Assembly: GCA_011364965.1 (NCBI GenBank)
Contig: RDOB01000002.1
Span: forward strand, 545,849-609,848
Direction of reading: 5' to 3'
Length of the DNA: 64,000 nt
DNA from: Candidatus Heimdallarchaeota archaeon
GTDB taxonomy: Archaea > Asgardarchaeota > Heimdallarchaeia > Hodarchaeales > Hodarchaeaceae
Below, piece by piece: positions 38,240-41,741 of the stretch (the stretch's first letter is position 1; each line of letters opens with the position of its first letter). The notes below the pieces were generated by a model. It was not told where the DNA came from and did not search any database. It worked only from the letters and a program-made list of their open reading frames with translations. Both the position numbers and the translations under genes were made by a program.

Positions 38240-39241
38240 ATGGAATTTCAATACGATTTAGAGCTTAATAAGATTGAAAGTATGATCAAGAATAAAAACA
38301 TTAAGCGAATTCTAATTCAAATGCCTGAAGGGATGTTAGATACTCCCTTAAAATCTATTATAACTAAATTTTCTGATTCTAATATTGAAATTTTTCTTGC
38401 TGGCGATGCTAGCTATGGAATATGTGATATAGCAATAGAGAAAGCCAAATTTCTTGACTGTGATCTATTGATTCATTTTGGTCATACAGATTTTGCGTTC
38501 GCTGATCGGATTCATTCGACAGTAGAAGGGATTAATATATTGATTATCCCCGCTTTGGTAACTTTTAACATTTCAAGCTCGCTTAATAATATCAAGAATA
38601 AGCTAGATGAATTAAGGTGGAGAAAAGTAATTATTACAGCTACTGCTCAACACTTAAACAATTTAAAAGAGTTAAAAACCTTCCTAGAAAAACAAAAGAT
38701 AATAGTTTCTAATGAGACTCAAATAATAGGCTGTCACATAGGTTCATTACGAACGCCAACTCAAAATGATGGAATTATCTCCTTACATGCTGGGGAATTC
38801 CATACTCGGGGATTATTACTAAATTCCTCAATACCAGTGCTTCAAGTTAACCCTTATACCTCTAATATCAGCTATTATTCATCTGATGAACGAGAAAGGA
38901 TAATCAAACAAAGACTTAATGTAATTACCAAAGTAAAATCCGCTCAATATTGGGGAATAATTTCTAGTTCAAAAATTGGTCAATATAACCCCACAAATAT
39001 AGAAAGTATAAGACAGAAGTTATCAAATGCAAAAAAGAGGCATCTTATAGTAATTGCTGAAAATATTGATACTCAAGTTTTATTTAATATGACTTGGGTT
39101 GATGCGTGGGTGAATACAGCATGCCCCCGGTTAATCGACGATCAAGAGCGTTTTTTTAAGCCTATAATAACCTTTAAAGAATTTCTATATTTATTTGGAG
39201 ACGTTACTTGGGAAAATTTGCTTGAAAAGGGGTTTATATAG
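38240..39241 (+). CDS. dph2: Diphthamide biosynthesis 2-(3-amino-3-carboxypropyl)histidine synthase (Dph1/Dph2 family)
   Basis: QMPEG, YGICD, HFGH, QIIGC, KIGQ, TACPRL (all three Fe-S Cys present). Confidence 0.9.
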   Translation: MEFQYDLELNKIESMIKNKNIKRILIQMPEGMLDTPLKSIITKFSDSNIEIFLAGDASYGICDIAIEKAKFLDCDLLIHFGHTDFAFADRIHSTVEGINILIIPALVTFNISSSLNNIKNKLDELRWRKVIITATAQHLNNLKELKTFLEKQKIIVSNETQIIGCHIGSLRTPTQNDGIISLHAGEFHTRGLLLNSSIPVLQVNPYTSNISYYSSDERERIIKQRLNVITKVKSAQYWGIISSSKIGQYNPTNIESIRQKLSNAKKRHLIVIAENIDTQVLFNMTWVDAWVNTACPRLIDDQERFFKPIITFKEFLYLFGDVTWENLLEKGFI

Positions 39242-39363: not shown

Positions 39364-40314
39364 TTGACTCGGGAACAATCCGATGAGATTTCGTATGAAA
39401 AGGTGACTTCCGGGCCAATTACAACTGGTAAATCATCAATTAAAGGGAGTAATCTGGTTGTTGTTCTTGCAGATGAAGGTGGATTACCAGTTTATACAAG
39501 ATCAATTCATATTGACAAATCAGGTTATATTCATGAAAGAGAAAACGAAACATTTGATCCAAAAAATGAAAGCGTAGTTTTGATATCTGGGCTAATTGAA
39601 GCCATTATGCAATTAAAAGAAATCGTTCGGCCAACATTAATTGATATCACTCTTGATAAAGAATCAGATAAACCAATATATGTGGATTATGCAAAAGCTC
39701 CTGACGGAATTTCCCTCCTCTCCTTATCAACTTCACCTGAGTTTCAACAGCTTCCAATTAACTTGCTTAAGTATTATACTCCTCTTAGAGGAGAATTTGA
39801 CAAATCCATAGCAAATTGGAACGAGAGATTTGTAGAAATTGTTGAAGATCCTATTAATGAAGATGCTGCCATCTACTGGAGAATTTTATCACAAATTAAG
39901 CGAGAATTATCTGAATTTGTTTCATTTATCTTGGTTTATGATCCAGATGGTAATTATCTTTTTTCAACCGCACGAAATCAGGAACGAGGAAGCCTACCGG
40001 ATCCATTATTGGATTCGATTTCTAAATATATAAAACAAGAATATCTTCTTCGGAAATATCGGAATAATGTTTCCCTGATTGGAGCAAAGCGCTTACGTGA
40101 TTCTGTTATATGGCATTTCAAATGTTTTGACAAAATTTTTGTATTCTTCACTTATCGTGTTCCTGACCTTCATACTTTCTCTACTTTACAATCTGAAATG
40201 ATTACTTTTATTTCTAATAACTTGGAGCGATTCATTGAAACAGCTAACGTTCATTCCCTTTCAAGTAGTATTAAAAAGAACTTTAATTCTACTAGGTTTA
40301 TTTTTCTATCCTGA
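39364..40314 (+). CDS. Putative tandem longin/roadblock-like domain protein
   Basis: VVLADEGGLPVYTR..VLISGLIEAI and FILVYDPDGNYLFS repeats of the beta-beta-helix pattern. Confidence 0.55.
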   Translation: MTREQSDEISYEKVTSGPITTGKSSIKGSNLVVVLADEGGLPVYTRSIHIDKSGYIHERENETFDPKNESVVLISGLIEAIMQLKEIVRPTLIDITLDKESDKPIYVDYAKAPDGISLLSLSTSPEFQQLPINLLKYYTPLRGEFDKSIANWNERFVEIVEDPINEDAAIYWRILSQIKRELSEFVSFILVYDPDGNYLFSTARNQERGSLPDPLLDSISKYIKQEYLLRKYRNNVSLIGAKRLRDSVIWHFKCFDKIFVFFTYRVPDLHTFSTLQSEMITFISNNLERFIETANVHSLSSSIKKNFNSTRFIFLS

Positions 40315-40408
40315 TTGGGTAAAATCAGCTTTCTAAAAGATTTTAATAGTATTTTATGTAGGAAAGTCCTTAAGCAGGTTAAATCCCTTAGTTTTTTAAT
40401 TGATAAAA

Positions 40409-41176
40409 ATGTCAGAATCAGATAAATCCCCAATATTAGAAGCAGCAAAATCAAGTAGATCAGCATGTAGATTATGTCATCAAAAAATAATGAAGGGAGA
40501 GTATCGAATAGGTATCCCTTACGACTTTACCACTTCTGATGGTAATATAGTGACTTCTTATCGTTATCACCATCCAAAATGCGTTCCAGTTAGAAATATC
40601 GACTTGGTAACAAAATTAATTAAAAATAACACCACAATTGAATCAGCTATCAAAGAATTAATATTTAAAGAACTAGATGAAGCGAAAAAGGCGCAAAAAG
40701 ACAGATCATCTTCTCCTTACATTGAGGAATCTAAGAGTTCAAGAAGTACATGTCGACTTTGTGAAGAAAAAATTCAAAAAGAGACATACCGCGTTGCAGA
40801 ACCAGAACAAGTGGAATTGGAGGATGGAAGGTCTTTTTCTTCACATAAATATTTCCATATAAACTGCTATTTAGACCATCAGAAAAATCCGAAGGAAATT
40901 TTTGATAAACTTACACAAGTTTCCATAAACAGAAATATTTTTACAAGATCTGAAGCTGCGCTTTTAGAAAAGAAGTTAGATCAAATTTTATCATCAGATA
41001 AATTGAGTTCAGATATTCTATCAATGATTTCAGATAAACCTATTGATTTAGATCAGTTAAAGCACCGTGCACAAGAATTGGGAGTTTCTAATGAAACATT
41101 AATGAAAAGTATCGAAAGAGGTTTGCTTCAGGGAATTTATTTTGAACCTTCACCAGGAAAAATTCAAAAATTATAA
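40409..41176 (+). CDS. Tandem PARP-type zinc finger protein with C-terminal winged helix
   Basis: EAAKSSRSACRLC..RIG..HPKC and EESKSSRSTCRLC..RVA..HINC; C-terminus GIYFEPSPGKI. Confidence 0.85.
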   Translation: MSESDKSPILEAAKSSRSACRLCHQKIMKGEYRIGIPYDFTTSDGNIVTSYRYHHPKCVPVRNIDLVTKLIKNNTTIESAIKELIFKELDEAKKAQKDRSSSPYIEESKSSRSTCRLCEEKIQKETYRVAEPEQVELEDGRSFSSHKYFHINCYLDHQKNPKEIFDKLTQVSINRNIFTRSEAALLEKKLDQILSSDKLSSDILSMISDKPIDLDQLKHRAQELGVSNETLMKSIERGLLQGIYFEPSPGKIQKL

Positions 41177-41180
41177 TTTT

Positions 41181-41741
41181 CTACTTTGAACTGTAATTAG
41201 TCGATTCTCTAGCGTGTTTTGTCTGGATTCGTTTAAAAATAATCGGGATTAGAGTTAGAGCGGAATTTTCATTCTGAAAAACGTGTACAATTAAGTCTGC
41301 AGCGAGAGCATAATCTTCTAGGCACACATGGGTTGATAAATTAATTTGTTGCTGTAATTCAAACAATTTTTGAAAAACTACAGTAATTTCTCGCAATTTA
41401 GTTCTAAAAAAAGAATGAATACATTTAGTTATCAATACAGAGATTAAATTTTCATATTCCTCAATTAAAACTTTCTTCTCCCCTAGATCAATTAATTTAA
41501 GTGAAACAGATGAATCTACAACTTCTTTCATCATTTTCGACATTGCAGTGAATCCCATCCCTATTAGCTGATTTTCAATTGCTGATATTTCTCCGATTTG
41601 AAAATAATGAGAGAAAAGACAAATTCCATCTAAGCTTCTTATGATATACAAAGCGATAATATCATTTTTCCAGTTTTCTGGAGTTTTAACGGGGTTTTTT
41701 ACCCTTTTCCTTGTTTTAAAAGAGTACTTCAGATTCTGCAT
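41181..41741 (-). CDS. Longin-like domain protein
   Basis: ALYIIRSLDGICLFSHYF..QLIGMGFTAMSKMMKEV..LIDLGEKKVLIE..ISVLI. Confidence 0.65.
   Translation of the reverse strand: MQNLKYSFKTRKRVKNPVKTPENWKNDIIALYIIRSLDGICLFSHYFQIGEISAIENQLIGMGFTAMSKMMKEVVDSSVSLKLIDLGEKKVLIEEYENLISVLITKCIHSFFRTKLREITVVFQKLFELQQQINLSTHVCLEDYALAADLIVHVFQNENSALTLIPIIFKRIQTKHARESTNYSSK

What the first reader, a model, noticed from the sequence alone, without database searches (positions are those of the whole stretch)
40409..41176. PARP1-like tandem zinc fingers fused to an MCM-type winged helix: candidate archaeal DNA-break sensor
Seen: two CxxC...HxxC fingers (~40427-40590 and ~40715-40870), each with E-x-[AS]-K-S-x-R-[SA]-x-C-x-x-C-x-x-x-I-x-K-x-x-x-R. 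This closely matches the zf-PARP signature (PARP1 Zn1: EYAKSGRASCKKC...WYHFSC). The C-terminus (IERGLLQGIYFEPSPGKIQKL) resembles the winged-helix end of archaeal MCM. There is no catalytic ADP-ribosyltransferase or ligase domain. Established: zf-PARP fingers sense nicks and breaks in PARP1 (tandem Zn1-Zn2) and DNA ligase III, and are mainly eukaryotic. Inference: a stand-alone break sensor that recruits repair or replication factors through its WH, and a possible precursor of the PARP1 DNA-binding module.
Basis: partly seen in the sequence, partly recalled or inferred. Interest (0 to 1): 0.8.

Follow-up and report, generated by a model that had tools for sequence, protein, structure and literature searches.

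The report
Archaeal PARP-type fingers with MCM-like tail
An Asgard (Hodarchaeales-like) archaeon encodes a small protein with no enzyme domain that joins two genuine PARP1-type DNA-break-binding zinc fingers to a winged-helix tail like the one on its own replicative helicase MCM, so it probably links nicked or gapped DNA to the replication machinery, though nobody has tested this.

Summary
ORF 40409-41176 (+) encodes a 255-aa protein with two zf-PARP fingers (Pfam PF00645, 83 bits against a cut-off of 39). All zinc ligands and all DNA-contact residues mapped on PARP1 finger 2 are kept.

Its last 65 residues form a winged helix. A profile of this helix matches the solved Sulfolobus MCM tail best (E 3e-5). 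In the own genome it matches the MCM C-terminus next after itself (43 bits).

There is no catalytic domain. The 87%-complete genome shows no PARP catalytic or WGR domain.

The architecture appears only in the window's own genus, in 19 of 22 genomes including the window's. Other Heimdall and Thor lineages carry other finger combinations.

Stand-alone tandem fingers are also common in bacteria. zf-PARP in Heimdall- and Thorarchaeia is already published (Eme et al. 2023, supplement). This scan has already reported orthologues of this protein in other genomes.

A finger tree does not favour this protein as the ancestor of PARP1's finger pair, but cannot exclude it (AU p = 0.20).

A fold of the tail with the genome's Orc1/Cdc6 gave only weak support (0.51 against 0.00 in controls).

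Verdict: a real, uncharacterised, new variant of a known kind.

The parts
40409..41176 (+). Whole coding sequence (255 aa plus TAA stop) of the finger-finger-winged-helix protein, P0001
   Evidence: ORF list and translation. The ATG start agrees with 10 homologues.
40430..40582 (+). zf-PARP finger 1 core, residues 8-58. Zinc ligands are C20, C23, H55, C58.
   Evidence: Pfam PF00645 stretch 11-80. Own-genome scan 48.2 bits. Ligands invariant or nearly invariant in the family. Modelled as a three-stranded sheet.
40589..40699 (+). Helical extension of finger 1 and linker, residues 61-97. Poorly conserved.
   Evidence: Model helices 61-73 and 79-97; pLDDT drops at 97-99. Only 23% mean identity to relatives.
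40715..40867 (+). zf-PARP finger 2 core, residues 103-153. Zinc ligands are C115, C118, H150, C153.
   Evidence: Second Pfam stretch. Own-genome scan 40.7 bits. Aligns to PARP1 F1 and F2. K109, S110, R112, K124 and R128 are invariant.
40868..40978 (+). Helical linker between finger 2 and the winged helix, residues 154-190
   Evidence: Model helices 161-174 and 180-189. 26% mean identity to relatives.
40979..41173 (+). C-terminal MCM-type winged helix, residues 191-255, ending G-I-Y-F-E-P-S-P-G-K-I-Q-K-L
   Evidence: Model H-S-H-H-S-S topology. Profile A2 matches SsoMCM winged helix 2m45 at E 3.2e-5 and the own MCM C-terminus at 43 bits. BLASTP to the own MCM tail gives 30% identity over 67 aa, E 3e-10.

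Best explanation
The gene encodes a non-enzymatic adaptor. Its two PARP-type CCHC zinc fingers bind discontinuities in duplex DNA (nicks, gaps or ends) in the way PARP1 F1/F2 and the DNA ligase III finger do. Its C-terminal winged helix is a paralogue of the tail of the replicative helicase MCM and acts as a protein-docking module. The protein would thereby connect a damaged or interrupted template to the replication initiation or replisome machinery. The most likely partner is an Orc1/Cdc6 protein, the known docking partner of MCM tails.

Shown here: the domain identities, their conservation, and the absence of any catalytic domain. Inferred: DNA-break binding, the docking role of the tail, and the identity of the partner.
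For: Fingers:
- Pfam zf-PARP scores 83 bits against a cut-off of 39.
- phmmer hits PARP1 F1F2 (2n8a, E 1e-8) and the ligase III finger (1uw0).
- Foldseek on the AF2 model (pLDDT 82.7) hits PARP1 Zn1/Zn2-DNA complexes at probability 1.0.
- Residues shown by NMR and mutagenesis to contact DNA in PARP1 F2 are K119, S120, R122, K134, R138 and W157 (PMC3094755). They align to K109, S110, R112, K124, R128 and Y148 in finger 2, and to K14, S15, R17, K29, R33 and Y53 in finger 1. These are invariant or nearly so in the family.
- A same-genus variant (P0013 / G064) carries an SSB-like OB fold (PF21473, 53 bits) between the fingers. This fits recognition of gaps or junctions.

Tail:
- Profile A2 matches the SsoMCM winged helix best in the PDB (E 3.2e-5). 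The P. abyssi Rpa2 winged helix scores only E 0.13.
- In the own genome the ranking is self at 103 bits, MCM tail at 43 bits, and an RPA2-like protein at 16 bits.
- The tail has net charge -2, so it is not a basic DNA-binding surface.
- MCM winged helices latch onto ORC/Cdc6 in eukaryotes, and Orc1-1-ATP suffices to recruit archaeal MCM (PMC5538431; PMC12141716).

Selection:
- Identity to relatives is concentrated in the finger cores (61-67%) and the tail (48%). The linkers share only 23-26%.
- The gene is present in 19 of 22 genomes of the genus, counting the window's own.

Complex prediction of the tail with the own Orc1/Cdc6:
- Verdict 'weak support', score 0.51, best of 3 controls 0.00.
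- The mark was reached by 58 of 80 solved complexes and by 2 of 110 mismatched pairs.
- At 0.60 or under, only 7 of those 80 solved complexes reached it, as did both mismatches that passed.
- The runs agree in 100% of contacts and the partner's pLDDT is at least 77.
- My own alignments were used, and the pass may reflect memory of solved ORC-MCM complexes.
Against: - No binding of DNA or of any partner has been measured.
- PARP1's base-stacking Phe44 aligns to Glu138 in finger 2, so the exact mode of end or nick recognition may differ.
- Structure comparison alone cannot tell an MCM tail from other winged helices. Cullin WHB and Rpa2 WH score Z about 8.6-9, while MCM WH scores Z 6.6-6.8.
- The complex score is in the range that the tool says is 'more often wrong than right unless the guess was likely beforehand'. 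Only one of four Orc1/Cdc6 paralogues was tried, and no alternative partner (MCM core, PolD, primase, PCNA) was tried.
- The gene neighbourhood holds no DNA-metabolism genes. It contains Dph2, two hypothetical proteins, a GDSL lipase and a hydantoinase.
- The window's copy is the most divergent of its family: 44-49% identity to the others, which share a median of 63% among themselves. Orc1 from the same genomes is 83-88% identical.
Confidence: 0.55

Rival explanations
1. It is a plain DNA-binding or architectural protein, or a transcription factor. The winged helix is a third DNA-binding element, and all three modules bind DNA without recruiting any partner.
For: Winged helices are the commonest archaeal DNA-binding fold. 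Many top structural matches are transcription regulators such as PadR, IclR, MarR and Z-alpha. No partner is encoded nearby.
Against: The tail carries net charge -2. At the sequence level it is specifically like the MCM tail, not like regulator winged helices. zf-PARP fingers recognise DNA structure, not sequence (PMC3094755).
Confidence: 0.2
2. It is a decoy or checkpoint protein. On damaged DNA the MCM-like tail competes with the real MCM tail for Orc1/Cdc6, or docks on the MCM ATPase tier. This blocks helicase loading or slows the helicase near a nick.
For: The tail is a paralogue of the MCM tail. Deleting the tail of SsoMCM raises helicase activity about 15-fold, so the tail is a regulatory element (PMC4619765). 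The predicted docking on Orc1/Cdc6 has weak support: score 0.51, best control 0.00, with the counts given under the best explanation.
Against: This is pure inference. No competition or inhibition data exist, and the direction of the effect (recruit or block) cannot be read from sequence.
Confidence: 0.12
3. It is the direct evolutionary precursor of the tandem F1-F2 module of eukaryotic PARP1.
For: The tandem arrangement is the same. The host belongs to a lineage close to eukaryotes, judging by labels on homologues. The AU test does not reject a clade of these fingers with the eukaryotic ones (p 0.20).
Against: In the ML tree PARP1 F1 and F2 group with each other, with plant multi-finger proteins and with Asgard single-finger proteins (SH-aLRT 92). 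This protein's fingers group with bacterial and Zn-OB-Zn second fingers (SH-aLRT 83-89). Its fingers match only positions 1-59 and 1-70 of the 87-position Pfam model, whereas the single-finger proteins match 1-86. Tandem fingers are common in bacteria.
Confidence: 0.1
4. The fingers bind RNA or another ligand, and the protein has nothing to do with DNA damage.
For: No functional data exist. The neighbouring genes are not DNA-related.
Against: All DNA-contact residues are conserved. One variant has an SSB-type OB insert. The tail is of a replication-protein type.
Confidence: 0.05

Closest known systems
Human PARP1 N-terminal zinc fingers F1-F2 (Zn1-Zn2; PDB 2n8a, 4av1, 3od8, 3odc, 9mi8)
   Same: Two tandem CCHC zf-PARP fingers with the same fold. 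The same phosphate-grip residues are kept (K-S-x-R, K, R and an aromatic before the His ligand).
   Different: There is no Zn3/PADR1, BRCT, WGR or catalytic domain. Phe44 of the base-stacking loop is not conserved in finger 2. The helical part after each finger differs, so the Pfam match ends at model position 59-70 of 87. The tree does not place it as sister to PARP1's fingers.
DNA ligase III alpha zinc finger (PDB 1uw0)
   Same: A zf-PARP nick sensor. Finger 1 aligns over residues 10-91 at E 0.0016.
   Different: Ligase III has a single finger fused to a ligase. Here there are two fingers and no enzyme.
Bacterial stand-alone 'PARP-type zinc finger-containing proteins' of about 175-215 aa (Pirellulaceae, Planctomycetales, Kofleriaceae)
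   Same: Enzyme-free tandem zf-PARP proteins. Their second fingers group with finger 2 of this protein.
   Different: The bacterial proteins lack the winged-helix tail (sequences read). They too are uncharacterised.
C-terminal winged helix of archaeal MCM (SsoMCM 2m45, MthMCM 2ma3, and the genome's own MCM)
   Same: It is the best sequence-profile match of the tail (E 3.2e-5 in the PDB; 43 bits in the own genome). The motif G-x-[IVL]-[YF]-E-P-x-x-G is shared. The topology is the same.
   Different: It is attached to zinc fingers rather than to an AAA+ helicase, and is only about 30% identical.
Winged helix of Pyrococcus abyssi Rpa2 / RPA32 (PDB 9f26, 9f27, 9f2a)
   Same: It is the best structural match (Foldseek TM 0.61-0.79, VIA Z 8.6). 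It is a protein-docking winged helix that binds PolD and primase, by the titles of those entries.
   Different: The sequence-profile match is much weaker than to MCM (E 0.13). The genome's own RPA2-like tail scores 16 bits against 43 for MCM.

Membership tests
zf-PARP domain (Pfam PF00645) | HMM score above the curated gathering cut-off | tested here: met
   83.1 bits against 39.3 in two stretches. Each finger scores 48.2 and 40.7 bits alone.
zf-PARP domain (Pfam PF00645) | CCHC zinc ligands, C-x2-C-x(about 31)-H-x2-C | tested here: met
   C20/C23/H55/C58 and C115/C118/H150/C153. They are invariant, except where one homologue is N-terminally cut.
zf-PARP domain (Pfam PF00645) | Fold: three-stranded sheet with a zinc hairpin, followed by helices | tested here: met
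   AF2 model with pLDDT 82.7. Foldseek probability 1.0 to PARP1 Zn1/Zn2 and the ligase III finger.
zf-PARP domain (Pfam PF00645) | Conserved DNA-contact residues (PARP1 K119, S120, R122, K134, R138, W157) | tested here: met
   They align to K109/S110/R112/K124/R128/Y148 and to K14/S15/R17/K29/R33/Y53.
zf-PARP domain (Pfam PF00645) | Preferential binding to nicks, gaps or DNA ends | not testable with these tools
   Needs EMSA or anisotropy with defined DNA substrates.
Poly(ADP-ribose) polymerase (PARP1-like enzymes) | PARP catalytic domain (PF00644) with regulatory, WGR and PADR1 domains | tested here: not met
   None is in the protein. No PF00644 or PF05406 match was found anywhere in the 87%-complete genome.
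MCM-type C-terminal winged helix | Significant sequence-profile similarity to solved MCM winged helices, and to the genome's own MCM tail ahead of other winged helices | tested here: met
   2m45 E 3.2e-5 and 4fdg E 0.003. Own MCM 43 bits at E 1e-10, next hit 16 bits. BLASTP E 3e-10.
MCM-type C-terminal winged helix | A curated family model for an MCM winged helix passes its cut-off | tested here: inconclusive
   Only WHD_MCM8 (PF25051) appeared, at 16.5 bits against a cut-off of 26, and only for one homologue. Nothing appeared for the window's own tail.
MCM-type C-terminal winged helix | Winged-helix topology (H-S-H-H-S-S) | tested here: met
   Domain model: pLDDT 81.5 overall and 89-94 over the winged-helix core. 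VIA Z is 6.6-6.8 to MCM winged helices and 8.6 to the Rpa2 winged helix.
MCM helicase | MCM AAA+ core (PF00493) | tested here: not met
   Absent from this protein. The genome's MCM is a separate gene on contig 12.
RPA32 / Rpa2 C-terminal winged helix (PF08784) | HMM or profile similarity | tested here: inconclusive
   There is no Pfam match and the profile gives E 0.13 to P. abyssi Rpa2. It is nevertheless the top Foldseek match.

The most novel reading that the evidence does not exclude
In Hodarchaeales, DNA discontinuities are read by PARP-type fingers and passed directly to the replication-licensing machinery. The protein's MCM-mimicking tail docks on Orc1/Cdc6, either loading MCM at breaks (origin-independent restart) or withholding Orc1/Cdc6 from origins while DNA is damaged. 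This would be a break-to-replication signalling route without ADP-ribosylation in close archaeal relatives of eukaryotes.
Probability: 0.15. Interest if true: 0.8.

Novelty: new variant of a known kind. Interest (0 to 1): 0.55.

Why it matters
PARP-type fingers are the front end of eukaryotic DNA-break signalling. Here they sit in an Asgard archaeon with no enzyme attached, fused to a module copied from the replicative helicase.

This gives a simple, testable system for two questions:
- What did these fingers do before poly(ADP-ribosyl)ation existed?
- How do archaea couple template damage to replication initiation or restart?

The protein is small and soluble-looking, and should be easy to express.

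The significance is limited in three ways. The domain's presence in these archaea is already published. The same architecture has been reported repeatedly by this scan. The evolutionary link to PARP1's own finger pair is not supported by the tree.

Tried and rejected
Searches on the tail alone:
- Pfam and NCBIfam gave nothing above cut-off.
- Single-sequence phmmer of the tail against the PDB gave nothing. Only the 19-sequence profile worked.

False lead: a PF08784 (RPA_C) scan of the genome pointed to a 317-aa regulator-like ORF at 21 bits, below cut-off.

Structure searches cannot assign the winged-helix subfamily. Cullin WHB, Rpa2, PadR and MCM all score Z 6.6-9.

Gene context:
- The order Dph2, hypothetical-316, fingers gene, hypothetical-200, GDSL lipase, hydantoinase A/B is conserved across relatives.
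- The whole block is syntenic within one genus and holds no DNA-metabolism gene.
- It says nothing about function.

Literature:
- Four full-text searches for zf-PARP in archaea or prokaryotes found nothing useful. A fifth, for PARP together with Heimdall names, found no paper holding both.
- The published mention was found only in the supplement of Eme et al. 2023.

Tree test: the AU test of 'these fingers plus eukaryotic fingers form one clade' was inconclusive (p 0.20).

A macro-domain ORF lies about 5 kb before the window. Macro domains also occurred in 8 of 14 control genomes, so I draw no link.

Only one complex job was available. MCM core, PolD, primase, PCNA and the other three Orc1/Cdc6 paralogues were not tried.

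Full report
**1. What is there**

The window holds an ORF at 40400/40409-41176 on the + strand. Ten homologues start at the position of the ATG at 40409, which gives a 255-aa protein, P0001. [quoted passage not shown]

Pfam assigns zf-PARP (PF00645) with 83.1 bits, E 2.4e-23, against a gathering cut-off of 39.3, in two stretches. No other family passes its cut-off in Pfam or NCBIfam. A six-frame scan of the window's genome (2.97 Mb, 16 contigs, 87% complete) finds the two fingers separately above the cut-off, and nowhere else in the genome.

phmmer against the PDB returns PARP1 F1F2 (2n8a, E 1e-8; 4av1; 9mi8) and the DNA ligase III finger (1uw0).

An AlphaFold2 model built on an 11-sequence alignment has pLDDT 82.7. 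It shows two sheet-plus-helix finger domains, a helical linker and a C-terminal H-S-H-H-S-S domain. Foldseek matches the fingers to PARP1 Zn1/Zn2-DNA complexes at probability 1.0.

**2. The fingers look functional**

NMR and mutagenesis on PARP1 F2 identified K119, S120, R122, K134, R138 and W157 as conserved DNA-contact residues of PARP-like fingers (PMC3094755).
- In the HMMER alignment these correspond to K109, S110, R112, K124, R128 and Y148 of finger 2.
- By the internal repeat they correspond to K14, S15, R17, K29, R33 and Y53 of finger 1.
- All are invariant or nearly invariant in the family, as are the eight zinc ligands.

One difference: PARP1 F1's stacking residue Phe44 aligns to Glu138. 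The neighbouring Leu137 and the D-G turn are invariant.

Conservation is concentrated where function is expected. Mean identity to nine relatives is 61% and 67% in the finger cores and 48% in the tail, but only 23-26% in the helical linkers.

**3. The tail is an MCM-type winged helix**

Taken alone, the last 85-96 residues match no Pfam family and no PDB sequence. A profile of 19 family tails (A2) finds:
- the solved winged helix of Sulfolobus MCM as its best PDB match (2m45, E 3.2e-5; full-length 4fdg, E 0.003);
- the Pyrococcus Rpa2 winged helix at E 0.13;
- the MCM8 winged helix at E 0.43.

The same profile searched against all six frames of the own genome ranks:
- itself at 103 bits;
- the C-terminus of the 705-aa MCM at 43 bits, E 1e-10;
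- far behind, a 219-aa OB-plus-winged-helix protein that looks like RPA2, at 16 bits.

BLASTP of the tail against the own MCM tail gives 30% identity over 67 residues, E 3e-10.

A domain-only model (pLDDT 81.5 overall, 89-94 over the winged-helix core) is a generic winged helix structurally. Foldseek's best hit is the Rpa2 winged helix bound to primase or PolD (TM 0.61-0.79). VIA-align gives Z about 9 for cullin WHB, 8.6 for Rpa2 and 6.6-6.8 for MCM tails. Structure alone therefore does not discriminate; the sequence profile does.

The tail has net charge -2, which argues weakly for protein docking rather than DNA binding.

**4. Who has it**

Labels on homologues name Hodarchaeales, Heimdallarchaeota, and some 'Thorarchaeota' or 'Promethearchaeota' MAGs. 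The genome's Orc1 is 83-84% identical to that of Candidatus Hodarchaeum mangrovi. I take the host to be a Hodarchaeales archaeon.

PF00645 occurs in 101 of 400 genomes of the phylum. It is concentrated in the window's class and in one family of another class (43 of about 89), and is nearly absent from the largest family (1 of 135). [quoted passage not shown] 2023, Supplementary section 4.1.3; PMC10307638).

The finger-finger-tail architecture is narrower. Tails scoring 82-123 bits occur only in the window's own genus, in 19 of 22 genomes counting the window's. They always lie in ORFs of 258-300 aa, or in one case 380 aa.

More distant full-length relatives (37-38% identity) exist in metagenomes.

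Other lineages combine the same parts differently:
- finger, SSB-like OB, finger, tail, in a same-genus genome (PF21473, 53 bits);
- finger, OB-like insert, finger, about 320 aa (no OB family reached significance for the one insert scanned);
- finger plus an OB-like region, 208 aa, and finger plus a winged-helix-like tail, 165 aa (read by eye only);
- an unknown 150-aa domain followed by a single finger, about 230 aa, the commonest form.

Outside archaea, enzyme-free tandem-finger proteins of 175-215 aa form at least 552 clusters at 90% identity. The few with labels come from Planctomycetota and Myxococcota, and NCBI names some of them 'PARP-type zinc finger-containing protein'. Of 162 representatives found by exhaustive HMMER, 132 carry exactly two fingers. 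'Mainly eukaryotic' is therefore no longer accurate.

**5. Relation to PARP1**

I built a maximum-likelihood tree of 87 finger domains over 88 columns. Support is weak throughout.
- PARP1 F1 and F2 from five eukaryotic PARP1-like proteins (four confirmed with the full domain set) group with plant-like multi-finger proteins and with the Asgard single-finger proteins (SH-aLRT 92).
- Finger 2 of this family groups with the second fingers of the Zn-OB-Zn and bacterial proteins (89).
- Finger 1 of this family is sister to that group (83).

This suggests that PARP1's pair arose by duplication within the eukaryotic or single-finger lineage, and that the tandem here belongs to a prokaryotic tandem lineage.

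The AU test does not reject a clade of this family's fingers with the eukaryotic ones (delta lnL 14.8, p 0.20). The 'precursor' idea is therefore disfavoured, not excluded.

**6. How it probably works**

Shown:
- two intact DNA-structure-sensing fingers;
- an MCM-type docking module;
- no enzyme domain;
- conservation concentrated on exactly these parts.

Inferred: the fingers hold the protein on nicks, gaps or ends, and the tail contacts a protein that normally reads the MCM tail.

In eukaryotes MCM winged helices latch onto ORC/Cdc6, and the Mcm6 winged helix binds Cdt1 (PMC5538431). In Sulfolobus, ATP-bound Orc1-1 suffices to recruit MCM (PMC12141716). Deleting the tail raises SsoMCM helicase activity about 15-fold (PMC4619765). 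From my own recollection, not checked here, Samson et al. 2016 mapped the Orc1-1 contact to the MCM winged helix.

The genome has four Orc1/Cdc6 genes. One lies beside the PolD small subunit and one beside MCM.

I folded the tail (alignment A2) with the one beside PolD (alignment A3). The verdict was 'weak support':
- score 0.51, best of three controls 0.00;
- the mark is reached by 58 of 80 solved complexes and by 2 of 110 mismatched pairs;
- at 0.60 or under it is reached by only 7 of those 80, and by both mismatches that passed;
- the runs agree in 100% of contacts and the partner's pLDDT is at least 77;
- my own alignments were used, and the pass may reflect likeness to solved ORC-MCM complexes.

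I count this as a small increase in the odds, not as evidence of binding. Whether the protein would recruit the loader to breaks or act as a decoy cannot be decided from sequence.

**7. Context and other checks**

The neighbours are Dph2, a 316-aa and a 186-aa protein without Pfam family, a GDSL hydrolase, a membrane protein and a UbiA prenyltransferase. The same order recurs in relatives. This is genus-wide synteny without functional meaning.

No PARP catalytic or WGR domain was found in the 87%-complete genome. One macro-domain ORF lies about 5 kb before the window, but macro domains are also common in the control genomes.

The window's copy is the most divergent of its family. It is 44-49% identical to the others, which share a median of 63%, while Orc1 is 83-88% identical across the same set. 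All functional residues are kept.

**8. Novelty and verdict**

The presence of zf-PARP in Heimdall- and Thorarchaeia is published. Stand-alone tandem fingers are already annotated in bacteria.

I found no description of the fusion to an MCM-type winged helix in the searchable literature. No member has been studied experimentally as far as I could find.

This scan has already reported orthologues of this protein from several other genomes, with the same reading.

I rate it a new variant of a known kind, of moderate to good interest.

Noticed in passing
L020:1091-2215 (+) (G064, same genus; equals P0013): A 375-aa variant of the same protein has an SSB-like OB fold (PF21473, 53 bits) inserted between the two fingers and keeps the MCM-like tail.
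   Followed up: partly
L016:1114-2061 (+); P0026, P0028, P0035: A family of about 320 aa in another Heimdall family (10 of 12 genomes) has a finger, an OB-like insert, a second finger, and no winged helix. The insert of P0026 gave only insignificant OB-type hints (POT1PC, E 0.06).
   Followed up: partly
L012:502-1203 (-), L013:910-1602 (+), L014:828-1517 (+), L019:1733-2449 (-): The commonest Asgard zf-PARP protein (about 230 aa, in Heimdall and Thor families) has an unknown 150-aa N-terminal domain with no Pfam match, plus one C-terminal finger. That finger matches the full Pfam model (1-86) and groups with eukaryotic fingers in the tree.
   Followed up: partly
L021:909-1406 (+) (G079, same order) and L015:1052-1678 (-) (G042): Two shorter combinations exist: a 165-aa protein with one finger and a winged-helix-like tail (…EGDIYRAKDGIY…), and a 208-aa protein with one finger and an OB-like region. 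The domains of both were read by eye only.
   Followed up: no
L030:953-1666 (-), L031:418-1128 (+) (Thor-like family f31): Proteins of about 237 aa have an N-terminal CxxC…CxxC zinc ribbon and a C-terminal tail ending GEIFEPRSGQVQLV. The tail matches the tail profile at 35-39 bits. The MCM-type winged helix therefore seems to be a mobile module in Asgard archaea.
   Followed up: partly
L024:1480-2139 (-) (own genome, contig 13): A 219-aa protein has an OB-like N-terminal half and a C-terminal winged helix ending GEFFEPKAGIY. It is probably the RPA2/RPA32-like subunit. It scores only 16 bits with the tail profile.
   Followed up: no
window 39364-40314 (+) and 41181-41741 (-): The two immediate neighbours (316 aa and 186 aa) have no Pfam family, yet keep their positions next to the finger gene in relatives. 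Their sequences look like roadblock/longin-type small-GTPase partners; this was not tested.
   Followed up: no
window 38240-39241 (+): A diphthamide synthesis protein (Dph2-like, PF01866, 206 bits) lies two genes upstream. The arrangement is conserved in relatives.
   Followed up: no
L009:1-1449 (-) (own genome, contig 12, next to MCM): A helicase-like ORF beside MCM appears to be interrupted by an intein-like insert (…ATPTLCVAKNTKI… then LMLGDGY). In relatives many MCM ORFs exceed 1000 aa, presumably because of inteins, whereas the own MCM is 705 aa.
   Followed up: no
own genome contig 9, 540919-541263 (+), about 5 kb before the window start: A stand-alone macro-domain ORF of 188 aa (PF01661, 140 bits) is present, in a genome where no PARP catalytic domain was found.
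   Followed up: no
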